Shown piece by piece: positions 835-8,521 of a stretch of DNA of 8,521 bases. The position numbers and the translations under genes were made by a program. How positions within the stretch are numbered: the stretch's first letter is position 1; the number at the start of each line of letters is the position of its first letter. This stretch comes from a virus. Its lineage: Duplodnaviria; Heunggongvirae; Uroviricota; Caudoviricetes. Below the pieces are notes generated by a model that saw only the letters and a list, made by a program, of their open reading frames with translations, did not search any database and was not told the origin of the DNA. Location of the stretch: IMG/VR virus record IMGVR_UViG_2617270966_000007. One strand, 5' to 3'.

Positions 835-990
835 TTACTCCTCAGGTTCGTAAGCTGTGAAGACAGCGACCTCCGTCTGGCCGGTTCGGATTCGTACCTC
901 GCAGAGGTCTTTCCTCGTTACCAGTGCCGTCACCATGACGGTTAAACAGATGACGATCAGGGCGATTAGCATCGCCTTTTGCTGCTTCAT
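835..990 (-). CDS. hok: Hok/Gef-family membrane toxin (type I toxin-antitoxin toxin), 51 aa, HokD/RelF-like
   Basis: Translation MKQQKAMLIALIVICLTVMVTALVTRKDLCEVRIRTGQTEVAVFTAYEPEE has the Hok signature (single transmembrane helix then LTRKDLCEVRIRTGQTEVAVF) and closely matches HokD as recalled. SD AAGGAG lies about 9 nt upstream of the ATG at 990-988. Confidence 0.9.
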   Translation of the reverse strand: MKQQKAMLIALIVICLTVMVTALVTRKDLCEVRIRTGQTEVAVFTAYEPEE

Positions 991-1047
991 AGCCTGCTTC
1001 TCCTTGCCTTTCGGCACGTAAGAGGCTAACCTACGTGTGTAGAGCAT
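835..1047 (-). CDS. Mok-like in-frame upstream extension of hok (70 codons)
   Basis: ORF-track frame begins MLYTRRLASYVPKGKEKQA and continues in frame into Hok. Chromosomal mok reading frames (for example MokC) are N-terminally extended, in-frame versions of hok. Whether this one is translated is unknown. Confidence 0.4.
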   Translation of the reverse strand: MLYTRRLASYVPKGKEKQAMKQQKAMLIALIVICLTVMVTALVTRKDLCEVRIRTGQTEVAVFTAYEPEE

Positions 1048-1470
1048 AGATATGGCCTCAGATTAATGTTAAGCGTCTTGCAGGACGCGTAATGTTAACT
1101 GGGGCTTTTCTCTATCTGCCTTTGGTGTTCATGCCTGAGACAGATAGCCTCAAGCACCCGCAGCCATTCTACTTAACTCCCGTCACCTCGCCAATATGAA
1201 ATCAATCAGAAAGGCGATCCATAAGAACAACAGCAAGGCAATAAATTGCCATTACAGCAGCAATAGCCAGCGCACATTTGAGAACCAGCACCACAACCTC
1301 CTGTATTGGACGTACACCAGTCCTGATAAATATGAGGCTGTCTCGTCAGTGATTCAATACAACTATTGGGTATAGTTTCTGTGATTTTGTTCTGTAGAAA
1401 TGGAACACAACAACCAGTCACCACCAGCACTTCTTTAAATACGCCAAGTCCGACGCAAGCTAACCTTCTA

Positions 1471-1554: not shown

Positions 1555-2199
1555 TTAACCACAGATGATATTGAAACGTTCTCCGGAAATCTTGACCATA
1601 ATGTCAGACAGCTCGCTGACGGCATGGGCTTCAGATGATCCCAGAGCGTCAGGCTGAACAGCTATTACCGAAGCTCCACTTGCCAGCCCTGCTTTTATAC
1701 CCGCAGATGCATCCTCAAATACCACGCATTCACCAGGCTCAAGGCCCAAAGCCAAAGCTGCTTTGATGTAACCCTCGGGACTTGGTTTTCCCGTCATTAC
1801 ATCTTCTGCACACACCATTACTATGGGTAAGGGGAGATTAGCCGCTTTCATCCTGTTTTCGGCAAGCATTCTGCCTGCAGAAGTAACAAGTGCCCAGCTA
1901 TCCGGTGGCAGTTTTGATAAGAGTGCAGCGGCCCCTTTTACTTCAGTAACGCCTTCTGTCGTGTTGATTTCAACCTCTTCGAGTGAGGCCGCGATTTTAT
2001 TGGTTTTCTCACCTGCACCAATAAAATGCGTCAGTGTATCAATCGTTTGCCGCCCGTGTGCGTAAGCAATCACAGCCTGAGTATCAAGACCGTATTCTGC
2101 ACAAAAATCTCTCCAGACGCTTTCCACTACGGCTGTTGAATCAACCAGCGTACCGTCCATATCGAATAAAAAACCCTTAGCGTTGAATATCATTGCCAT
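1555..2199 (-). CDS. HAD-superfamily hydrolase, subfamily IA (sugar-phosphatase / beta-phosphoglucomutase-like)
   Basis: HAD motif I FDMDGTLVDS near the N-terminus, motif III lysine in GKPSPEGY, motif IV FEDASAGIKAGLASG. The second ATG (2193) has better SD spacing (AGGA, about 6 nt) and may be the true start. Lies 24-30 nt downstream of the Nudix stop, so likely co-transcribed. Confidence 0.85.
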   Translation of the reverse strand: MAMIFNAKGFLFDMDGTLVDSTAVVESVWRDFCAEYGLDTQAVIAYAHGRQTIDTLTHFIGAGEKTNKIAASLEEVEINTTEGVTEVKGAAALLSKLPPDSWALVTSAGRMLAENRMKAANLPLPIVMVCAEDVMTGKPSPEGYIKAALALGLEPGECVVFEDASAGIKAGLASGASVIAVQPDALGSSEAHAVSELSDIMVKISGERFNIICG

Positions 2200-2222
2200 T
2201 CCTTAATGGTTGCAGAAGAAAG

Positions 2223-2861
2223 TTAATCAAACCATGTTTTTTCATCACCTTTCGCTACTCTCAGGCTGACAGCAATCTGCTCAGGCACAATTCTTGAAAG
2301 CGACAATTCAGGCAGGTCGTTGACATCAAAAAAATCAGCATCGAGTGACTCATGGCTGATTGACAGGCTGCCACCTACTTCTTCACAGAGAAAAATCAGC
2401 TTGTAAACATGCCAGGGTAAAGGCGGATGGCCGTGAAGATTACGATCCCAAACTCCCAATAGTTTAGTCACTCTGACTTTTAATCCGGTTTCTTCTTCGA
2501 CCTCTCGACGCACAGCTTCAGAAGGTGTATCTCCAACATCTGCCCATCCGCCAGGAAGACTCCATAATCCATCTGCAGCCTCTTTCACCATCAGAATACG
2601 ATTATTACGCAGGATAAACGCACGCACATCTGTTTTGGGCGTCGCGTAACCCGTTTCCGATACATGAAACAAATCATTGCGGCTAATATCAAACTGCGAA
2701 CTCAGCAGTCCAGCGGCAATTTCACGCAAGGCTTCATAGCGTTCCTTGTCAAAGACGTCTTTTGAATAGGTCAGGCCTGACTGCGCGAGGGCATTTAGTC
2801 TCTGGGCAACAAAAATAAGCTTTTCTTGGGTCAACACTTCAGACATGTTTTTCATCTTCAT
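2223..2861 (-). CDS. Nudix hydrolase with an N-terminal extension domain (ADP-ribose pyrophosphatase-like architecture)
   Basis: Nudix box GWADVGDTPSEAVRREVEEETGL (residues 105-127, plus 2481-2549) fits G-x5-(E/D)-x7-REVxEExGL. About 100 aa of N-terminal domain precede it. Start is ambiguous among ATGs at 2861, 2855 and 2846; none has a strong SD. Confidence 0.85.
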   Translation of the reverse strand: MKMKNMSEVLTQEKLIFVAQRLNALAQSGLTYSKDVFDKERYEALREIAAGLLSSQFDISRNDLFHVSETGYATPKTDVRAFILRNNRILMVKEAADGLWSLPGGWADVGDTPSEAVRREVEEETGLKVRVTKLLGVWDRNLHGHPPLPWHVYKLIFLCEEVGGSLSISHESLDADFFDVNDLPELSLSRIVPEQIAVSLRVAKGDEKTWFD

Positions 2862-2936
2862 TTATGTATTCAGAGTTCCTGTTAAGGATACTGCTCAATT
2901 CAATGAAGAATAACAAATGCATCTGGCACCTGCTAT

Positions 2937-3028: not shown

Positions 3029-3451
3029 TCACTTCAATAAATACCGAACATCACCCTGATAAAACGACAATATGCGCTGCATAACTTCACTCTTCCGGCA
3101 CTCGCGACAGATTATGTTCATACGCCTGTCGTAGCGGCGTATTTCTCCGTCGGGTAATGTCCAGATAAGGTCAGGATCAACCACAGATGGTTTCTTCAGA
3201 TTTGCCCTTGAGAGTTTTTTGCGGGCGTTTTGCCAGTCCTTACGCGCCTGTTCAGACGGGAATAACCCGTAAACAGAGTTGTATACATCGCCACTGGCAA
3301 CCAGCTCTCTGGCGAGAACACTCATCAGATATCTTGTCGCACCTGTCTTGGCTTCCAGTTGCCGCAACGTCTCGCGACCGCTCAGACGTACAAGTTCAAC
3401 AACCTGCCCTTTAATTTTTTCCCGCTCTTCTTGTGTAAATACTTTTGCCAT
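3029..3451 (-). CDS. Hypothetical phage protein (140 aa), translationally coupled to the upstream 256-aa gene
   Basis: ATG at 3451-3449 (MAKVFTQEEREK...) preceded by GGAGG at about 7 nt. The ORF-track start at 3466 is a TTG inside the coupling region. Basic C-terminal half (RRYDRRMNIICRECRK). No family recognised. Confidence 0.6.
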   Translation of the reverse strand: MAKVFTQEEREKIKGQVVELVRLSGRETLRQLEAKTGATRYLMSVLARELVASGDVYNSVYGLFPSEQARKDWQNARKKLSRANLKKPSVVDPDLIWTLPDGEIRRYDRRMNIICRECRKSEVMQRILSFYQGDVRYLLK

Positions 3452-3466
3452 AAGCGCCTCCGGCAA

Positions 3467-4237
3467 TCACTTTTCCGATACAACACGGCGGGAAGAATCA
3501 GTAATCTGTCGAACAATATCCCGGTGCTTGTTCAGCTCCCGCAGCGCGGCGCAGACTCGCTCCCACTTCTGAACATCACTTTTCGCCCTGCGCAGCGCCA
3601 GGTTTGCCCTGCGAAGGGACGGAAAAATCAGCTCATCTGCTTGCGTTTCGGTAAACGATGGCAACGGCTGCACAATGTCCGCCACAGTTTCTGTTTTAAT
3701 TTCTTCCTGTGTTGCGGCTTCCCGGACTGGTAACGCAGCACCTGCTGGCTGAGGAAAGGCCTTACCATCACTTTCCGTTACCAGCGCGGCTTTCGGCTCT
3801 GCTGGTAAATTATCGCCCGGCATGCAGTAACGAAATTTACCGTTCTGATTAACGCGTGCCAGCCGCCCCGTTGCGGTTACCACCGCCAGCGTGGAAGCAA
3901 CCTTGCGAGTACTGACACCGAACTTACCCGCCAGTTCCTCACACGTTTTAGCCCCATCCTGACCGATAAACTCAATCATCATGTCTGCGGTAACTTTTTG
4001 TTCGACCTCCCCGGTCAGCATATCCTGTGCTTCAGATTTTACTGGCCGCTCTTCGGTTACCCGGGATTCACCTTCGCCAGCCAGAAACCAGGTGTGACCA
4101 GTTTTATCAACGACGCCATTTCTTTTGAGTTCCCACAGCTCGTTGACAGCCTCTTCACGACTGATTCCAAGGCGAGCTGCCACCACATGTGAAGAGGCTT
4201 TTTTCAGTGCTTTCAGTGCGTCAGATACGGTTTCCAT
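3467..4237 (-). CDS. Hypothetical phage protein (256 aa) with two tandem winged-helix-like DNA-binding segments
   Basis: Two segments resembling wHTH domains (SSHVVAARLGISREEAVNELWELKRNGVV and KTCEELAGKFGVSTRKVASTLAVVTATGRLARV). GGAGG SD about 8 nt before the ATG at 4237. Starts 21 nt after the DnaC-like stop. Confidence 0.65.
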   Translation of the reverse strand: METVSDALKALKKASSHVVAARLGISREEAVNELWELKRNGVVDKTGHTWFLAGEGESRVTEERPVKSEAQDMLTGEVEQKVTADMMIEFIGQDGAKTCEELAGKFGVSTRKVASTLAVVTATGRLARVNQNGKFRYCMPGDNLPAEPKAALVTESDGKAFPQPAGAALPVREAATQEEIKTETVADIVQPLPSFTETQADELIFPSLRRANLALRRAKSDVQKWERVCAALRELNKHRDIVRQITDSSRRVVSEK

Positions 4238-4258
4238 TAAAATTTCCTCCGGACAAAA

Positions 4259-5005
4259 TTACTTCACAACCCTCATATTGCTGACATTTGGACGCCAGCT
4301 ATCCCAGTTAAACGTCACCCATCGACCACCGTTCATGGTCATGCGGTCCATAATCCTCTCACCAAGAAGCGTACTCATTGCGGCATGATTCAGGTTTGTT
4401 AACATCCCGACACTGCACAGTGATGCTGTCCGGCGATCAATTATCTGGTGCAATACCACCTGCTCGTTTTTCGTCTCCCGCTGAACGCCTATTTCATCCA
4501 GGACCAGCAAATCAACCCCGCAAAGCTCCTGTAAAAATTTTTCCCCGGATTTGCCGTTGTCGTAGCTGTCATGCAACACGCTCATGACGTCAGACACGGT
4601 GACGATAATCACGCTGCGCCCCTTCACCATCAGCCGGTTGCCCATCGCCGCTGCAAGGTGATTTTTCCCGGTGCCGGTTTTACCGCTGAACACAAAATTC
4701 GTGCACCCGGTCATCAGTTCGTCAGCTATGGATTTGGCCTGGCTCAGCGCGTATTTTTGCCCGTCGTTCTGCACCTGATAATTTGCAAACGAGCATTTGC
4801 TGTGCAGAGGCTGGATGCCCGAACGATTCAGGATTTTTTCCACCCGCAACTGGCGATTCTGGCGGTTAATCTCCTCGCTGCGTTTTCGTCCTTCAGCAAG
4901 TTGCCATTCCCGCCACTCCTCCACCGTCCGGTACGGTGGAACCGACCCCTGTGGTGCAAGTCTGCGAATACGTTCAAGAACCCCAACTGCCGCAATGTTT
5001 TTCAT
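4259..5005 (-). CDS. ydaV: DnaC-like helicase loader / IstB-type AAA+ ATPase (phage replication protein, YdaV-like)
   Basis: P-loop FSGKTGTGKNHLAAAMG and Walker B DLLVLDEIG. Length 248 aa. Starts 7 nt after the O-like gene stop with a G-rich SD. Symbol assigned by synteny and length match to the Rac prophage ydaU-ydaV pair. Confidence 0.85.
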   Translation of the reverse strand: MKNIAAVGVLERIRRLAPQGSVPPYRTVEEWREWQLAEGRKRSEEINRQNRQLRVEKILNRSGIQPLHSKCSFANYQVQNDGQKYALSQAKSIADELMTGCTNFVFSGKTGTGKNHLAAAMGNRLMVKGRSVIIVTVSDVMSVLHDSYDNGKSGEKFLQELCGVDLLVLDEIGVQRETKNEQVVLHQIIDRRTASLCSVGMLTNLNHAAMSTLLGERIMDRMTMNGGRWVTFNWDSWRPNVSNMRVVK

Positions 5006-5011
5006 GACACG

Positions 5012-5974
5012 TCACCCCCTGAATCCCGGCGGTATTTCAGTGTCCGGTTCAGAAATGTGATTCACGCAACGCTGCGCAGGCGAACGCCCCAGGCGGATAA
5101 CCAGTTCATCCCATTTTTCCCGGAGTTTTGCCGGACTCATGATGTTTTTTACCCAGAACGAATCCCGCTGGAGACGCCCAAACATTTCACAAATTTGTCT
5201 GTGAGTTCTGCCATCCAGCATCCGCATTGTGCGAACGTCATTGGCCCATGCTGTCCAGTTGGGTTCTTTCGGTCTAGTGATCTCGCCATCATAGCTGGCC
5301 GCCTGCTCGTAAAGACTCACGATTCGTCCCCAGATCCACTGTGCGCACACCAAATCTTCCTGACTTCCCCACTGGCGTTTTTTCGCACTGAACACAACCG
5401 CGTCAGGGTGTCGGGTTAAAAAATCCTGTTCAGCCGTCTGCGGGTCCGGTTGCGAAGCGTCCGGACAAGAAGATCTTTTATCTGACGGTTCAGGTTTTAA
5501 TACTGACGGATCGGGGTCAATCATCGCCCCCCTAATCGGCAGTTTTTTATCAACAGTTGATCCATCAAAATTTGACGGGTCAACCGTTGAGGGGGCAAAA
5601 TTTGACGGGTCAACTGTTAACGGGTCATTTTTTGCCGGGCTAATTTTTCTTTTCGGTTTATATGACTCACGCGCCGCCGCCGCAGCTGCTTCGAGTTTTT
5701 CCACATTAAGCCGATAGATATTGCTTACATTACGCCCACCGACCTTACGCTCTTCCTTCGTCAGCCAGCCCTCTTTCGCCAGTTCTGCAATAGCCGATTT
5801 CACTGTGGATTCACTTCTTGCACCGATCTGACGCCGGATAGTTTCAATGGCAGGCCATGACACACCCTCGTCATTGCTGTAGTCTACAAGACGGGCCATA
5901 ACCGCCACCCTGGATAAGATCATGCCGGTGAAGGCGCACCCTTCCCAGACAAGACCATGAAGCTTGCTGCTCAT
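5012..5974 (-). CDS. Phage replication initiator (O-like / replisome organiser, YdaU-like) with N-terminal wHTH and an internal TVDPSNF repeat linker
   Basis: The ORF track starts at a GTG (5989); the first ATG is at 5974 (MSSKLHGLVWEG...) with a GGGGG SD. N-terminal HTH-like segment (VSWPAIETIRRQIGARSESTVKSAIAELAKEGWL). The central region encodes PLTVDPSNFAPSTVDPSNFDGSTVD from direct DNA repeats. Sits immediately upstream of the DnaC-like gene. Confidence 0.8.
   Translation of the reverse strand: MSSKLHGLVWEGCAFTGMILSRVAVMARLVDYSNDEGVSWPAIETIRRQIGARSESTVKSAIAELAKEGWLTKEERKVGGRNVSNIYRLNVEKLEAAAAAARESYKPKRKISPAKNDPLTVDPSNFAPSTVDPSNFDGSTVDKKLPIRGAMIDPDPSVLKPEPSDKRSSCPDASQPDPQTAEQDFLTRHPDAVVFSAKKRQWGSQEDLVCAQWIWGRIVSLYEQAASYDGEITRPKEPNWTAWANDVRTMRMLDGRTHRQICEMFGRLQRDSFWVKNIMSPAKLREKWDELVIRLGRSPAQRCVNHISEPDTEIPPGFRG
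5544..5621. repeat. Iteron-like direct repeats (30-bp period) with adjacent AT-rich stretch inside the O-like gene: putative replication origin
   Basis: CAAAATTTGACGGGTCAACCGTTGA (5566-5590) and CAAAATTTGACGGGTCAACTGTTAA (5596-5620), plus a partial third copy TCAACAGTTGA (5550-5560). Each contains a TCAAC-N-GTTGA inverted core. Followed by the AT-rich run cattttttgccgggctaatttttcttttcggtttatatga (5626-5665). Confidence 0.45.
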
Positions 5975-5996
5975 AAAACCCCCGAACACCGTGCTT

Positions 5997-6422
5997 TTAG
6001 TGCATCACCACAGCATTCCCTGCCGGGCCGCCGCGATTCATCTGGTCATACAAAACAACCGCTGACGCAACAAAATCGCCGACATCCTTCCCCAGCCGAT
6101 CCCGCCGTTCGACAATCTCCCGGTAATACTCAGAGCTGTGACTGCGCATACGGGCCACCAGCAGAGGCGGCATTGCCTTTTCGATCGCCGGTAACAGAGC
6201 CTGAATTTTTTCAACAGCATCAGGGGTGTCTTTATCCAGCCAACGGAAAATTTTCTGTGTATTACGGGCCAGGGCTTCCGGATGGCTGTCGTCGTACAGT
6301 TCAGGGAACGTCATCCCCAGTTCGAAATAAGTCCGGGCTATTTCAGCTGCAGGAACTTTCTCACCATCAGGGTATGCCCAAGCATTCATCGCCATGCGGA
6401 TGTGCTCATGTTTGATTTTCAT
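5997..6422 (-). CDS. ydaT: YdaT-like prophage protein (CII-analogous regulator / reported toxin family)
   Basis: 141 aa, N-terminus MKIKHEHI, located between the Cro-like gene and the replication genes as ydaT is in Rac. The start overlaps the upstream Cro-like gene by 17 nt. Family call rests on synteny, length and recalled N-terminal similarity. Confidence 0.65.
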   Translation of the reverse strand: MKIKHEHIRMAMNAWAYPDGEKVPAAEIARTYFELGMTFPELYDDSHPEALARNTQKIFRWLDKDTPDAVEKIQALLPAIEKAMPPLLVARMRSHSSEYYREIVERRDRLGKDVGDFVASAVVLYDQMNRGGPAGNAVVMH

Positions 6423-6729
6423 GAATCATTTGCCTCTTGATGCTTCGGGTATGATCGTTTTCGTCATTTGGTTGCTTCATCGACATATTCTGCGAATAAC
6501 ATGACGAGCGTCGTAAGTATGTCCAATCAACATCAGGACGAAGTTCTTCACACAGGACACCACCTTTTGTTGCTCGTTCAATCGCAGGACATCTCTCAGC
6601 AGGCAACTGACGTACACCTTTGATCCATTGATTTACGCTTGGAGGAGATACACCTAAAAGCCTAGCCATTGCTGATTGCCCACCGACAACAGCACAAGCT
6701 CGTTTGAATGAATAGTTATCTTTTTTCAT
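6406..6729 (-). CDS. Cro-like / YdaS-like HTH DNA-binding protein (first gene of the rightward early operon)
   Basis: ATG at 6729-6727 (MKKDNYSFKRACAVVGGQSAMARLLGVSPPSVNQWIKG...) with GGAG about 8 nt upstream; HTH in QSAMARLLGVSPPSVNQWI. Divergent from the repressor gene, downstream of the predicted PR. The ORF-track start at 6750 would lie upstream of the predicted transcription start. Confidence 0.75.
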   Translation of the reverse strand: MKKDNYSFKRACAVVGGQSAMARLLGVSPPSVNQWIKGVRQLPAERCPAIERATKGGVLCEELRPDVDWTYLRRSSCYSQNMSMKQPNDENDHTRSIKRQMIHENQT

Positions 6730-6756
6730 CGAATGAACTCCAAAAAACACGCAACA

Positions 6757-6824
6757 ATATTAGGCTTAGCCTAATGCAATTGTCAATAGGCTAAGCCTAA
6801 TCCATCGAGAGTAGGGATTGCCTA
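6757..6824. promoter_or_regulatory. OR-like operator cluster (three 13-bp operators) with divergent PR (minus strand) and candidate PRM (plus strand)
   Basis: Operators TAGGCTTAGCCTA (6761-6773), TAGGCTAAGCCTA (6787-6799), TAGGGATTGCCTA (6812-6824), centres 26 and 25 bp apart. PR on the minus strand: -35 TTGACA (6786-6781), 18-bp spacer, -10 TAATAT (6762-6757). Candidate PRM: -35 TTGCCT (6819-6824), -10 GACTAT (6842-6847), which would start transcription at about the repressor ATG. Confidence 0.6.
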
Positions 6825-6853
6825 ACGCGATGCGCATAGGAGACTATTAAGCA

Positions 6854-7330
6854 ATGCTTAGTGGTAAAGACTTAGGCCGAGCGATAGAGCAGGCCATTAA
6901 CAAAAAAATTGCATCAGGAGCCGTCAAATCAAAGGCGGAAATCGCACGTCATTTCAAAGTCCAACCACCATCAATCCATGACTGGATTAAGAAAGGTTCG
7001 ATAAGTAAAGACAAACTTCCAGAACTATGGCGTTTCTTTTCTGATGTGGTTGGTCCAGAGCATTGGGGGCTTAACGAATACCCCATACCAACCCCATCCA
7101 CTTCAGATACAAAAAGTGAACTTTTAGACATAAACAGCCTTTATCAAGCCGCCTCTGATGAAAAAAGAGCAATTGTGGCTTTCCTCTTATCTGGAAATGC
7201 TACGGAGCCTAGTTGGGTTGATCATGACGTTCGCGCCTACATTGCCGCAATGGAAATGAAGGTAGCTAACTATCTGAAAAATCAAGAATCAAAACGGAAA
7301 AGCCAGAACATCACCAAGACAGGAACTTAA
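6854..7330 (+). CDS. CI-type prophage repressor (XRE-family HTH, 158 aa; RacR-like by position and length)
   Basis: N-terminal HTH (SKAEIARHFKVQPPSIHDWIKKG). Divergent from the Cro-like gene across the operator cluster, and flanked on both sides by the same 13-bp palindromic operators. No obvious S24 peptidase Ser/Lys domain in the short C-terminal part. Confidence 0.8.
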   Translation: MLSGKDLGRAIEQAINKKIASGAVKSKAEIARHFKVQPPSIHDWIKKGSISKDKLPELWRFFSDVVGPEHWGLNEYPIPTPSTSDTKSELLDINSLYQAASDEKRAIVAFLLSGNATEPSWVDHDVRAYIAAMEMKVANYLKNQESKRKSQNITKTGT

Positions 7331-7344
7331 ACTTATATGGTCCG

Positions 7345-7366
7345 ACGGGAAATTCCTAGTTCCCGT
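7345..7366 (+). terminator. Possible weak terminator hairpin after the repressor gene
   Basis: ACGGGAA-attcctag-TTCCCGT (7-bp stem) followed by TAGTTAACT; the U-tract is poor. Confidence 0.25.
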
Positions 7367-7425
7367 TAGTTAACTCCTACTACCTCTCCCACAAACCATC
7401 ACCTATTAGGTCGCGCCCAGATTAT

Positions 7426-7467
7426 TAGGCATAGCCTATTGACAAGTAATTAGGCATTTCCTATAGT
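7426..7467 (+). promoter_or_regulatory. PL-like early promoter with two operators (OL-like)
   Basis: -35 TTGACA (7439-7444), 17-bp spacer, -10 TATAGT (7462-7467). Operators TAGGCATAGCCTA (7426-7438, abutting the -35) and TAGGCATTTCCTA (7451-7463, covering spacer and -10). Mirror image of the PR arrangement. Confidence 0.6.
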
Positions 7468-7648
7468 TTTCCCATACCAACCCATCCCGTCCCACACAAT
7501 ACAGGGCAATACCTCGAGTTACCAGGCAGTGGTCAGGGGTTAAGTAGCCAGCCCGATGCGTAAGAACATGACGGCAGGGTTCAACTTTAATAACTATGCA
7601 GCAGGTTTTTGTTCCGCTACCCCGGCGTTAAGGGGAAATGAGGTCAGC

Positions 7649-7801
7649 ATGGATACTATCGATCTTGGCAACAGCGAATCTCTGGTATGTGGTGTGTTCC
7701 CAAACCAGGACGGTACGTTCACCGCGATGACGTATACCAAAAGCAAAACGTTTAAAACCGCAGCTGGCGCGCGTCGCTGGTTAACCAGAAACACTGACTG
7801 A
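7649..7801 (+). CDS. Small early-left protein (50 aa), YdaF-like (DUF1391-type)
   Basis: ATG at 7649 (MDTIDLGNSESLVCGVFPNQDGTFTAMTYTKSKTFKTAAGARRWLTRNTD) preceded by GGGGAAATGAGG with GAGG at 5 nt. The ORF-track start at 7556 lacks an SD. Family assigned from recalled similarity to Rac ydaF. Confidence 0.6.
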   Translation: MDTIDLGNSESLVCGVFPNQDGTFTAMTYTKSKTFKTAAGARRWLTRNTD

Positions 7802-7812
7802 TGAGGTTGACG

Positions 7813-8214
7813 ATGGAATTTAAAGATTTACCAGTACCATTCCAGGAAATGGCATCGAATGTGGTTCGCTCTCAACTGGCGACTCTTGACCTGAGTACTG
7901 TAGAAAAGGAAACCATCGATACTATATCCGGTAACGTGCGTCGTGCCTTTATAGGTCTGTATGAAGAGAAGCGCCTATTCGGCGGACAGAATTCGCCTGA
8001 AAACAAGAATCAAGCAAATGATGAGAAGCTGAAACACATTATCGCCTTACTTTTGGAAGACGCAAAACGTCTACAGCAACTGGAACCAAATGCAGGCACA
8101 GAGGCCCGCATTTGGATTGCCATGAAATCACTCAAATGTGAAAGCAGTGATTATTTCAAAACAACAATTAAAACTACTCAACTTTCGGGAGAGCTACTGA
8201 AGAAATTGCCATAA
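7813..8214 (+). CDS. Hypothetical early-left protein (133 aa), no recognisable domain
   Basis: ATG at 7813 (MEFKDLPVPFQEMASNVV...) with GAGG 6 nt upstream, 11 nt after the upstream stop. Predicted mostly helical and charged. Last gene before the IS1 insertion. Confidence 0.6.
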   Translation: MEFKDLPVPFQEMASNVVRSQLATLDLSTVEKETIDTISGNVRRAFIGLYEEKRLFGGQNSPENKNQANDEKLKHIIALLLEDAKRLQQLEPNAGTEARIWIAMKSLKCESSDYFKTTIKTTQLSGELLKKLP

Positions 8215-8259
8215 GAGCATGGTCTTTCTCTTGTTCTGCAAGATGAGCATTAATACCTG

Positions 8260-8521
8260 GGTAGTGACTCCAACTTACTGATAGTGTTTTATGTTCAGAT
8301 AATGCCCGATGACCTTGTCATGCAGCTCCACCGATTTTGAGAACGACAGCGACTTCCGTCCCAGCCTTGCCAGATGTTGTCTCAGATTCAGATTATGTCG
8401 CTCAATGCGCTGAGTGTAACGCTTGCTGATAACGTGCAGCTTTCCCTTCAGGCGTGATTCATACAGCGGCCAGCCATCCGTCATCCATACCACGACCTCA
8501 AAGGCCGACAGCAGGCTCAGA
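8260..8521 (-). mobile_element. IS1 insertion sequence, partial (right end with terminal inverted repeat; continues beyond window)
   Basis: Terminal inverted repeat GGTAGTGACTCCAACTTACTGATAG starts at 8260 and resembles the IS1 IR as recalled. The interior encodes the InsB C-terminus on the minus strand. Confidence 0.9.
8275..8521 (-). CDS. insB: IS1 transposase InsB, C-terminal part (CDS continues beyond the window edge)
   Basis: Translation ...[71 protein letters not shown] matches the IS1 InsB C-terminus as recalled. The stop codon lies inside the terminal IR. Confidence 0.9.

What the first reader, a model, noticed from the sequence alone, without database searches (positions are those of the whole stretch)
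3029..4237. Translationally coupled pair of uncharacterised genes between the replication module and the cargo
A 256-aa protein with two tandem winged-helix-like segments is followed 15 nt later, through a GGAGG, by a 140-aa protein with a basic C-terminal region. The tight coupling implies the two act together. The position just after the DnaC-like gene is where lambdoid phages carry nin-region and accessory genes. Function is unknown; regulatory, anti-defence or replication-accessory roles are all possible.
Basis: inference. Interest (0 to 1): 0.4.

Follow-up and report, generated by a model that had tools for sequence, protein, structure and literature searches.

The report
Ren-like gene pair after phage replication genes
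The two genes are real, very common prophage genes: the second is a homologue of phage lambda's Ren protein and the first is a double winged-helix protein (DUF1627/YdaW family). Both sit in the slot right after the replication genes, are already annotated in public genomes, and are not an obligate pair.

Summary
On the minus strand, a 256-aa ORF (3467-4237) is followed, after a 15-nt spacer containing GGAGG, by a 140-aa ORF (3029-3451).

Both are genuine genes. They match Pfam DUF1627 (E 1e-98) and DUF977 (E 2e-27), are under purifying selection, and match 4616 of 5426 complete E. coli genomes.

The 140-aa protein is a homologue of lambda Ren (PHROG 142, E 1e-43, with a shared C-terminal motif). 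Lambda ren occupies the same slot directly after the helicase-loader gene.

The 256-aa protein is the full-length form of K-12 Rac YdaW. It has two confidently predicted winged helices and a basic C-terminal helix, joined by disordered linkers.

The "acts together" inference is weak. Of 36 phage records, 12 carry both genes, 12 only the first and 12 only the second. The two genes also diverge discordantly, and the second has its own ribosome-binding site.

The most likely role is a non-enzymatic Ren-type accessory of the replication operon that protects phage replication from exclusion or abortive-infection systems. This is inferred, not shown.

Identical proteins already exist in RefSeq with these labels, so the finding is ordinary. 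It does touch the unsolved question of what Ren does.

The parts
3467..4237 (-). DUF1627 / YdaW-family gene, 256 aa plus stop
   Evidence: ORF and translation. Pfam PF07789 E 9.7e-99 and phrog_630 E 4.5e-133. 55% identical to K-12 YdaW over residues 1-154. RefSeq WP_000451007.1 is an identical CDS. dN/dS 0.36-0.43.
4073..4237 (-). Winged helix 1 of the 256-aa protein (residues 1-55), the best-conserved part of the family
   Evidence: AF2 pLDDT 95-97, topology H4-11, H16-23, H27-39, E43-46, E49-52. Invariant L34 and W50 in a 37-sequence alignment. Neutral charge, pI 6.7.
3818..3997 (-). Winged helix 2 of the 256-aa protein (residues 81-140)
   Evidence: AF2 pLDDT 95-97. pI 9.5. Weak hits to phrog_142 'Ren-like' (2.7e-6) and to MarR-type phrog_1687 (7e-8). 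hhalign vs the Ren/DUF977 wHTH gives 95% probability, but 89% vs an unrelated O-protein wHTH control.
3470..3622 (-). C-terminal basic helical region of the 256-aa protein (residues 206-256), preceded by a disordered acidic Pro/Ala/Glu linker and a conserved PSF motif
   Evidence: AF2 helices 208-237 and 239-255, pLDDT about 90-96. pI 11.4; linker 141-205 pI 4.05. P193, F195, R216 and R217 conserved. This region is lost in K-12 YdaW.
3452..3466 (-). 15-nt intergenic spacer with Shine-Dalgarno GGAGG (3457-3461)
   Evidence: Sequence. The 15-nt spacer is present in 75 of 76 close loci, and 68 of the 76 junctions carry GGAGG. Diverged pairs (POCJ13, STEC1589) have 14 nt with GGAG.
3029..3451 (-). 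DUF977 / 'LygF' / Ren-like gene, 140 aa plus stop
   Evidence: Pfam PF06163 E 2.3e-27 and phrog_142 'Ren-like exclusion protein' E 1.3e-43 over residues 1-137. Lambda Ren hits the same PHROG at 1.6e-41. RefSeq WP_032280071.1. dN/dS 0.18-0.25.
3260..3433 (-). Winged helix of the 140-aa protein (residues 7-64), followed by a basic helix at residues 67-83 (3203-3253)
   Evidence: AF2 pLDDT about 88-94; H7-24, H29-36, H40-53, E57-59, E62-64, H67-83. pI 9.2 and 11.1.
3059..3118 (-). Ren signature motif (residues 112-131, NIICRECRKSEVMQRILSFY)
   Evidence: BLASTP vs lambda Ren residues 73-92 (NLVFKECRQSAAMKRVLAVY): 9/20 identical, 16/20 positive, E 5e-6. Invariant N112, C118, S121, M124, R126, L128 and Y131 across DUF977 plus Ren. 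Low AF2 confidence here, pLDDT 47-61.
4259..5005 (-). DnaC-like helicase loader gene immediately upstream (context)
   Evidence: NCBIfam PRK12377 E 1.4e-152 and phrog_50.
5012..5989 (-). O-like replication initiator gene with an internal iteron array at 5550-5639 (context; probable origin)
   Evidence: phrog_391 E 1.4e-114. Five units of 15-nt period with dyad symmetry.
6757..6786 (-). pR-like promoter candidate upstream of the cro-like gene; the only promoter-like site on this strand before the pair
   Evidence: TTGACA-18-TAATAT, 10 of 12 matches. This is a consensus match only.
2910..2936 (-). Weak terminator-like hairpin just after the Ren-like gene; positional analogue of lambda tR2
   Evidence: 11-pair stem with only 3 G-C pairs, then a T-rich tail. 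Lambda layout pR-cro-O-P-ren-tR2. Inconclusive.

Best explanation
The window is the early-right operon of a Rac-like lambdoid prophage of E. coli, read on the minus strand: cro-like (ydaS), ydaT, O-like initiator carrying the origin iterons, DnaC-like loader, then the two genes of the finding, then variable cargo.

The 140-aa gene is a long-form homologue of lambda ren. The 256-aa gene is the intact form of K-12 ydaW: two winged helices and a basic C-terminal helix joined by flexible acidic linkers.

Both are non-enzymatic winged-helix proteins made together with the replication proteins. The most likely role, by analogy with Ren, is as accessory or adaptor proteins of the replication module. 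They would bind protein partners (and possibly DNA) so that phage replication is not aborted by exclusion or abortive-infection systems of resident prophages or the host.

They are two independent modules that can share the slot, not an obligate two-subunit machine.

Shown: gene reality, family membership, Ren homology of the second gene, the fold, the conserved slot, and separability. Inferred: co-transcription from the pR-like promoter, the anti-exclusion function, and the partners.
For: Family membership and Ren homology.

Same slot as lambda ren: and P>ren in 80 of 80 loci.

The slot is kept whatever the loader type. In 80 close viral loci, DUF1627 follows a DnaC-like gene in 55 and a lambda-P-like gene in 24 (1 has no upstream hit). 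In genomes of Serratia, Salmonella, Enterobacter and others it still follows the last replication gene. DUF977 alone sits directly after the O-like gene in HannyBb and mEp460.

Operon layout: there is no promoter-like or terminator-like site on the strand between 6757 and 2936.

Folds: winged helices without any catalytic domain.

Literature on Ren: O, P and ren are overlapping and co-translated. ren-minus heteroimmune phage grow poorly on Rex+ lysogens, with suppressors in O and P. Ren interacts with RexA and RexB in two-hybrid assays. All.

Literature on YdaW: K-12 ydaW was a hit among prophage 'blockers' of the retron-Sen2 toxin RcaT in an overexpression screen.

Purifying selection on both genes.
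Against: No experiment addresses these two proteins themselves apart from the truncated YdaW screen hit, which had no mechanistic follow-up.

Ren's own mechanism is unknown, and Ren is dispensable for P-lethality and replicative killing.

This window carries no rexAB. The ORFs after racR are DUF1391 and an unknown PHROG.

Winged helices with basic surfaces are equally typical of DNA-binding regulators.

The link between DUF1627 and Ren is only at the generic winged-helix level: an unrelated O-protein wHTH control scores nearly as well.

One DUF977 gene (PhiR46_1) lies after an exonuclease gene rather than a loader gene.
Confidence: 0.45

Rival explanations
1. They are sequence-specific DNA-binding transcription regulators (MarR/ArsR-like winged helices) that tune phage early/late gene expression or host genes.
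For: Both fold as winged helices with basic surfaces: WH2 pI 9.5, the 140-aa protein pI 9.9. There are weak profile hits to MarR, ArsR, MntR and Crp HTH families. Fold neighbours include MarR/ArsR/GntR regulators. YdaW is listed among predicted E. coli transcription factors of unknown function.
Against: All regulator-family hits are far below the curated cut-offs (e.g. MntR 20 bits vs 153; HTH_Crp_2 20 vs 27). The models show isolated winged helices without the dimerisation helices of MarR/ArsR. WH1, the best-conserved domain, is charge-neutral. Ren has never been shown to regulate transcription, and its genetics point to O, P and Rex. The constant association is with replication genes, not with a divergent promoter or operator.
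Confidence: 0.2
2. They are direct anti-defence 'blockers' that neutralise toxin effectors of host abortive-infection systems such as the retron toxin RcaT. This would be unrelated to replication; the position after the loader gene would only provide early expression.
For: K-12 ydaW (the N-terminal two-winged-helix part of this family) was a hit in the TIC screen for blockers of retron-Sen2 RcaT, together with other prophage genes. Ren binds RexA and RexB in two-hybrid assays. The region just downstream is a hypervariable cargo/defence slot.
Against: The ydaW hit comes from an overexpression screen, and the text read does not say whether ydaW was among the 11 re-tested blockers. Neither protein matches any PADLOC model meaningfully. 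The slot is conserved relative to replication genes across different loader types, which is not expected for a free-standing anti-defence moron. Suppressors of ren-minus map in O and P.
Confidence: 0.2
3. The two proteins form an obligate heteromeric complex whose stoichiometry is set by translational coupling.
For: The order is fixed (DUF1627 then DUF977) and the 14-15-nt spacer is conserved even in pairs only 61-65% identical. 75 of 80 close viral loci keep both genes. Two metagenomic ORFs (P0002, P0004, one contig each) fuse both domains through stop-codon loss or frameshifts.
Against: Each gene is found alone in the same slot as often as the pair. Diverged DUF1627 genes outside E. coli lack a DUF977 neighbour. 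Divergence is discordant between the two genes. The second gene has its own Shine-Dalgarno sequence and no stop/start overlap. The fusions are single contigs and may be sequencing errors.
Confidence: 0.15

Closest known systems
Bacteriophage lambda Ren (96 aa; PHROG 142 'Ren-like exclusion protein')
   Same: The 140-aa protein matches the same PHROG end to end (1.3e-43, vs 1.6e-41 for Ren itself). It has an N-terminal winged helix and the C-terminal motif N-x-[IV]-x-[KR]-[ED]-C-R-x-S-x-x-M-x-R-[IV]-L-x-x-Y. Both are basic (pI 9.9 each). Both are the last gene of the replication operon, just before the variable region.
   Different: It is 44 residues longer: a 10-residue N-terminal extension and a roughly 35-residue basic insertion (KDWQNARKKLSR...DGEIRRYDRR) between the winged helix and the motif. 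Lambda Ren does not reach the Pfam DUF977 model. Here the gene is preceded by DUF1627 with a 15-nt gap, instead of overlapping the loader gene by 4 nt. The module uses a DnaC-like loader rather than lambda P. The window has no rexAB.
E. coli K-12 Rac prophage YdaW (b1361, 186 aa)
   Same: Same slot directly after ydaV (the DnaC-like gene). 55% identity over residues 1-154, covering both winged helices.
   Different: K-12 YdaW is truncated. After about residue 154 it loses the PSF motif and the basic C-terminal helix, and Rac in K-12 has no DUF977 gene after it (rzpR follows). The window's gene is the intact form.
Pfam DUF977 / 'LygF' (Salmonella Enteritidis Sdf region I gene name)
   Same: The 140-aa protein is a full-length member (96 bits, residues 1-135 of a 134-position model). 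Phage records label close homologues LygF.
   Different: In the papers read, 'LygF' appears only as a gene name in the Salmonella Sdf region, with no function given. DUF977 has been described only as a winged-helix fold, sometimes fused to Fic domains.
Tandem winged-helix proteins (SelB C-terminus, ScpB, ESCRT-II, UFL1/DDRGK1) and single wHTH regulators (MarR, ArsR, Z-alpha)
   Same: These are the best structural neighbours of the two models. The two-winged-helix beads-on-a-string arrangement resembles protein- or RNA-binding tandem winged-helix scaffolds.
   Different: No match reaches E < 1e-3. Sequence identity is 11-25%. There is no shared context or extra domains, so this is fold class only, not family membership.

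Membership tests
Pfam PF07789 (DUF1627) | Score above the curated gathering threshold over the whole model | tested here: met
   328 bits vs a 28.1 cut-off; model positions 1-155 of 155 on residues 91-245.
Pfam PF06163 (DUF977) | Score above the curated gathering threshold over the whole model | tested here: met
   96.2 bits vs a 22.1 cut-off; model positions 1-133 of 134 on residues 1-135.
Lambda Ren family (PHROG 142) | Full-length profile match shared with lambda Ren itself | tested here: met
   140-aa protein: E 1.3e-43, profile positions 1-113 of 116. Lambda Ren: E 1.6e-41, positions 11-110.
Lambda Ren family (PHROG 142) | Conserved C-terminal motif (ECRxSxxMxRxLxxY) | tested here: met
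   Pairwise BLASTP E 5e-6, 9/20 identical. Seven invariant positions across DUF977 and Ren.
Lambda Ren family (PHROG 142) | Gene lies at the end of the replication operon, directly after the initiator/loader genes | tested here: met
   Here it is separated from the loader only by the DUF1627 gene. In HannyBb and mEp460 it is directly after the O-like gene. Lambda: P then ren. One exception is PhiR46_1.
Lambda Ren family (PHROG 142) | Stop/start overlap with the preceding gene (co-translation, as for lambda O-P-ren) | tested here: not met
   15-nt gap with its own GGAGG, vs a 4-nt overlap in 80 of 80 lambda-type loci. This is a feature of lambda's arrangement rather than of the protein family.
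Lambda Ren family (PHROG 142) | Protects the phage from Rex-dependent exclusion; interacts with RexA/RexB | not testable with these tools
   Known for lambda Ren only. Needs complementation and interaction assays.
Ren-related winged helix (for the 256-aa DUF1627 protein) | Winged helix specifically related to the Ren wHTH rather than to winged helices in general | tested here: inconclusive
   phrog_142 hits at 2.7e-6 (window) and 3.2e-9 (Serratia homologue). hhalign gives 95% / E 4e-8 to the Ren/DUF977 wHTH, but an unrelated O-protein wHTH control gives 89% / E 2e-6. The C-terminal regions are unrelated (E 0.14).
MarR/ArsR-type transcription regulators | Family profile above threshold, and dimerisation helices flanking the wHTH | tested here: not met
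   All hits are below the curated cut-offs. The AF2 models show isolated winged helices.
Translationally coupled gene pair | Stop/start overlap or abutment, or a downstream gene lacking its own ribosome-binding site | tested here: not met
   15-nt spacer; GGAGG lies after the stop codon, 5 nt before the ATG. Functional coupling by re-initiation cannot be excluded from sequence alone.
Obligately co-occurring two-gene system | Partners found together across genomes | tested here: not met
   Phage records split 12 both / 12 DUF1627 only / 12 DUF977 only. An E. coli sample gives about 28 / 7 / 25 of 60. Diverged DUF1627 loci have no DUF977.
Known anti-phage defence or anti-defence proteins (PADLOC) | Significant match to a defence-system model | tested here: not met
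   Only marginal HTH-level hits (E about 1e-3) for the 256-aa protein and none for the 140-aa protein.

The most novel reading that the evidence does not exclude
DUF1627, DUF977 and Ren would together form a 'Ren class' of winged-helix anti-abortive-infection factors that are hard-wired to lambdoid replication modules. The reason would be that the replication initiation complex, or its DNA intermediates, is what Rex-like, retron-type and similar systems sense. The tandem arrangement here would then give layered protection against more than one such system. The full-length YdaW-type protein would use its two winged helices and basic tail to bind and neutralise effectors such as RcaT.
Probability: 0.2. 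Interest if true: 0.55.

Novelty: already known. Interest (0 to 1): 0.25.

Why it matters
Matches to one or both genes occur in about 85% of complete E. coli genomes, often in several copies, and the genes are present in Stx-converting phages. Yet neither has a demonstrated function, and the mechanism of their only studied relative, lambda Ren, has been open since 1980.

Three points give a cleaner frame for experiments on what Ren-type proteins do for phage replication and for escape from exclusion systems:
- The 140-aa protein is a Ren homologue.
- DUF1627 is the intact form of YdaW.
- Both always ride at the end of the replication operon but are separable.

As a discovery in this window it is ordinary, because the genes and their labels are already in public annotation.

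Tried and rejected
Solved structures by sequence: nothing significant. The best hits were the ADAR1 Z-alpha domain (E 0.074) and histone H2B (E 0.18).

Fold searches: the 256-aa model against PDB, and the 140-aa model against BFVD viral structures and PDB. All returned only generic winged-helix neighbours, none below E 1e-3. BFVD did not return lambda Ren as a top hit, probably because the Ren-motif region is modelled at low confidence.

PADLOC: no meaningful hit. NCBIfam: no family for either protein.

Widening the DUF977/Ren alignment: a third homologue search seeded with DUF977 plus Ren raised the hits from 869 to 1163, but the listed top 120 were all close DUF977 proteins. A viral-contig scan with lambda Ren returned only sequences at least 99% identical. 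The 140-aa model therefore rests on a shallow alignment.

The search for related loci with the 37-sequence alignment failed because no conserved stretch was found. A 7-sequence alignment worked.

DUF1627 as a specific Ren paralogue: downgraded after the O-protein wHTH control scored nearly as well.

A cryptic Ren-like gene after DUF1627 in DUF977-less loci: rejected, since the small downstream ORFs belong to unrelated PHROGs.

An origin or iterons inside the pair: rejected, since the iteron array is inside the O-like gene.

An RNA element in the pair: none at Rfam gathering thresholds.

The dedicated paper on Ren (Thomason & Court 2022, PMC9529316) is not held. Only citing statements could be read.

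'LygF' was checked as a functional name. In the papers read it appears only as a gene name in a Salmonella difference region, with no function given.
Full report
**What is there.** The region lies on the minus strand. A 256-aa ORF runs from 4237 to 3467. After its TGA stop there is a 15-nt spacer (TTGCC-GGAGG-CGCTT), and then a 140-aa ORF runs from 3451 to 3029. The GGAGG is at 3457-3461, 5 nt before the ATG. The 256-aa gene has its own GGAGG (4246-4250), 8 nt before its ATG and 21 nt after the stop of the upstream DnaC-like gene.

**Context.** The window is the early-right operon of a Rac-like lambdoid prophage of E. coli. Its genes are:
- RacR repressor, 6854-7330 (+) (NCBIfam equivalog, E 8.8e-74)
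- YdaS/Cro-like
- YdaT
- an O-like initiator, 5012-5989
- a DnaC-like loader, 4259-5005
- the pair of the finding
- NUDIX and HAD hydrolases
- hok/sok

A DNA match 100% identical over the pair lies in an ompW-integrated prophage of E. coli MLI121. There RefSeq annotates the same two CDSs as 'DUF1627 domain-containing protein' and 'DUF977 family protein'.

**Are they real genes?** Yes.
- Pfam DUF1627 scores 328 bits and DUF977 96 bits, both far above the curated cut-offs.
- The DNA matches 4616 of 5426 complete E. coli genomes, with up to nine places per genome.
- Against homologues 61-90% identical, dN/dS is 0.36-0.43 for the first gene and 0.18-0.25 for the second.

**The 140-aa protein is a Ren homologue.**
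- It matches PHROG 142 ('Ren-like exclusion protein') from end to end at E 1.3e-43.
- Lambda Ren, taken from NC_001416, matches the same family at 1.6e-41.
- Direct BLASTP aligns NIICRECRKSEVMQRILSFY with Ren's NLVFKECRQSAAMKRVLAVY (E 5e-6).
- In a joint alignment, seven positions of this motif are invariant.
- Relative to Ren, the protein has an N-terminal extension and a basic insertion of about 35 residues.
- Lambda Ren itself does not reach the Pfam DUF977 model, so the link is visible in PHROGs but not in Pfam.
- The names 'LygF' and 'YdaW family' used in phage records carry no functional information.
- AlphaFold2 gives a confident winged helix (residues 7-64) and a basic helix (67-83). 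The Ren-motif region has low confidence.
- Fold searches return only generic winged helices.

**The 256-aa protein is the intact form of K-12 YdaW.**
- It is 55% identical to YdaW over residues 1-154. YdaW sits in the same place after ydaV but has lost the C-terminal third.
- The family is narrow: 155 clusters at 50% identity among 1.84 billion representatives.
- The architecture is conserved down to about 22% identity. It consists of winged helix 1, a variable linker, winged helix 2, an acidic Pro/Ala/Glu linker, a PSF motif and a basic C-terminal helix.
- AlphaFold2 predicts both winged helices at pLDDT >=95 and the C-terminal helices at about 90-96. The linkers are disordered, and pTM is 0.36, as expected for beads on a string.
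- The best PDB neighbours are tandem winged-helix scaffolds (UFL1/DDRGK1, SelB, ScpB, ESCRT-II) and single wHTH domains (MarR, ArsR, Z-alpha). None is below E 1e-3.
- The second winged helix gives weak hits to the Ren PHROG (2.7e-6 here; 3.2e-9 for a Serratia homologue).
- Domain-level hhalign links that helix to the Ren/DUF977 winged helix at 95% probability. However, an unrelated winged helix (the N-terminus of the O-like initiator) scores 89% as a control. I treat this as fold-class similarity, not demonstrated paralogy. The C-terminal regions of the two proteins are unrelated.

**Do the two genes belong together?** Only loosely.
- In 80 viral contigs with near-identical DUF1627 genes, 75 have DUF977 next. 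The upstream loader is DnaC-like in 55 and lambda-P-like in 24 (1 has no upstream hit), so the genes move between replication-module types.
- I used a natural read-through fusion (P0002) as a tblastn query against 50,697 phage records. Of 36 matching records, 12 have both genes adjacent, 12 have only DUF1627 (the PPompW group and one other) and 12 have only DUF977 (HannyBb, mEp460, Evi, Tritos and others).
- In nearly all the single-gene cases checked, the lone gene sits directly after the last replication gene. PhiR46_1, where DUF977 follows an exonuclease gene, is the exception.
- Ten diverged DUF1627 loci still place the gene after a DnaC-, P- or O-like gene, but none has a DUF977 neighbour. 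They come from Serratia, Salmonella, Enterobacter, E. ruysiae, K-12-type E. coli and unnamed bacteria. An eleventh locus, a partial match in Citrobacter, gave no replication-gene hit. The small downstream ORFs belong to unrelated PHROGs.
- An evenly spaced sample of 60 E. coli records gives about 28 with both, about 25 with DUF977 only and about 7 with DUF1627 only.
- Divergence is discordant. In phage 683R6 the identities are 67% vs 90%, and in STEC1589 they are 61% vs 77%.
- What is conserved is the order (DUF1627 first) and a 14-15-nt junction with a Shine-Dalgarno sequence.
- The two fused ORFs, P0002 and P0004, are single metagenomic contigs and may be errors.
- 'Translational coupling' in the strict sense is not supported. 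Lambda P and ren overlap by 4 nt in 80 of 80 loci, whereas here there is a gap and an independent ribosome-binding site.

**Operon layout.** On the minus strand, the only sigma-70-like site is upstream of the cro-like gene (6786-6757). No terminator-like site occurs until a weak hairpin at 2936-2910, just after the 140-aa gene. This mirrors the lambda layout pR-cro-cII-O-P-ren-tR2. The scans are consensus matches only. Downstream of this point the content is hypervariable: NUDIX+HAD here, QueH in close relatives, and toxin-antitoxin genes or kinase/FtsH/peptidase genes in other phages. The probable origin is an iteron array inside the O-like gene (5550-5639), not in the pair.

**What is known about the relatives.**
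- Lambda O, P and ren overlap and are co-translated.
- Phages with initiator/helicase-loader modules are reported to carry a ren gene.
- ren-minus heteroimmune phage grow poorly on Rex+ lysogens, with suppressors in O and P.
- RexB-Ren interaction was seen in a yeast two-hybrid assay, and RexA/RexB-Ren interaction in a bacterial two-hybrid assay.
- The authors call Ren's function unidentified.

All five points come from the supplement of bioRxiv 10.1101/2021.04.19.439022. In addition:
- Ren is not needed for P-lethality or replicative killing (PMC3640518).
- K-12 ydaW was among the prophage genes that blocked the retron-Sen2 toxin RcaT in an overexpression screen. It was not followed up (bioRxiv 10.1101/2020.06.22.160242).
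- From my own recollection, not verified here because the paper is not held: Thomason & Court 2022 reported that Ren rescues RexAB-caused UV sensitivity and aberrant lysis.

**Most likely mechanism.** Both proteins are non-enzymatic winged-helix proteins produced together with the replication proteins. By homology for the 140-aa protein, and by position and fold for the 256-aa protein, the best-supported reading is a Ren-type accessory role. They would bind partners at or around the replication complex (initiator, exclusion proteins, possibly DNA), so that phage replication is not aborted by Rex-like or other abortive-infection systems. I give this 0.45.

The rivals are:
- ordinary DNA-binding regulators (0.2)
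- free-standing toxin blockers unrelated to replication (0.2)
- an obligate heterocomplex (0.15)

These readings overlap in part and the numbers are not exclusive. None of them can be settled by sequence analysis. The decisive experiments are listed separately.

**Verdict.** The genes are already annotated in public genomes and phages, including as 'DUF1627 | Ren-like exclusion protein' in Shigella phage POCJ13, NC_025434. The finding is therefore not new. Its residual interest is that this very common pair touches the long-open question of what Ren does.

Noticed in passing
window 5550-5639: Iteron-like array inside the O-like initiator gene: five overlapping copies at 15-nt spacing (TCAACnGTTGAnGGG / TCAAAATTTGACGGG) with dyad symmetry. 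It is probably the phage origin, as in lambda where ori lies within O. It encodes a PSTVDPSNF peptide repeat in the protein.
   Followed up: partly
window 835-1159 (-): hok-family toxin gene (835-1047) with its sok antisense antitoxin RNA (Rfam RF01794, 985-1159, 114.7 bits): a type I toxin-antitoxin module in the cargo region.
   Followed up: partly
window 1555-2861 (-): Cargo genes directly after the Ren-like gene: a NUDIX hydrolase (2223-2861) that hits the PADLOC phage-defence candidate PDC-S07 (E 7.4e-10), and a HAD hydrolase (1555-2199). Close relatives carry QueH in the same slot. Other phages carry toxin-antitoxin genes or kinase/FtsH/peptidase genes. This is a hypervariable moron slot.
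   Followed up: partly
window 2910-2936 (-): Weak terminator-like hairpin (11 pairs, only 3 G-C) between the Ren-like gene and the cargo, at the position of lambda tR2.
   Followed up: no
window 6854-8493: racR is followed on the same strand by a DUF1391 (YdaF-like) ORF (7556-7801) and an ORF of unknown PHROG 1363 (7801-8214). This is the position where lambda carries rexAB after cI. The stretch ends in an IS1 InsB fragment (8275-8493, minus strand).
   Followed up: partly
L001 (E. coli MLI121) vs window 6400-7400: The closest complete genome has the identical pair and replication genes but a LexA-family (cI-type) repressor instead of RacR. The immunity region has therefore been swapped by recombination. 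No complete E. coli genome in the collection matches the whole window: the best covers 85%.
   Followed up: partly
P0002, P0004 (ENA metagenome ORFs): Two single-contig ORFs fuse the DUF1627 and DUF977 proteins. In P0002 the TGA stop is read as Gly, in frame. P0004 fuses them through frameshifts. They may be real variants or assembly errors.
   Followed up: partly
H48, PP818812.1 'Actinobacillus phage vB_Apl-pPE4': A record labelled as an Actinobacillus phage carries a DUF1627 gene 78% identical in protein (84% in DNA) to the E. coli one. This is unexpected for that host and may reflect an E. coli-type prophage, mislabelling or contamination.
   Followed up: no
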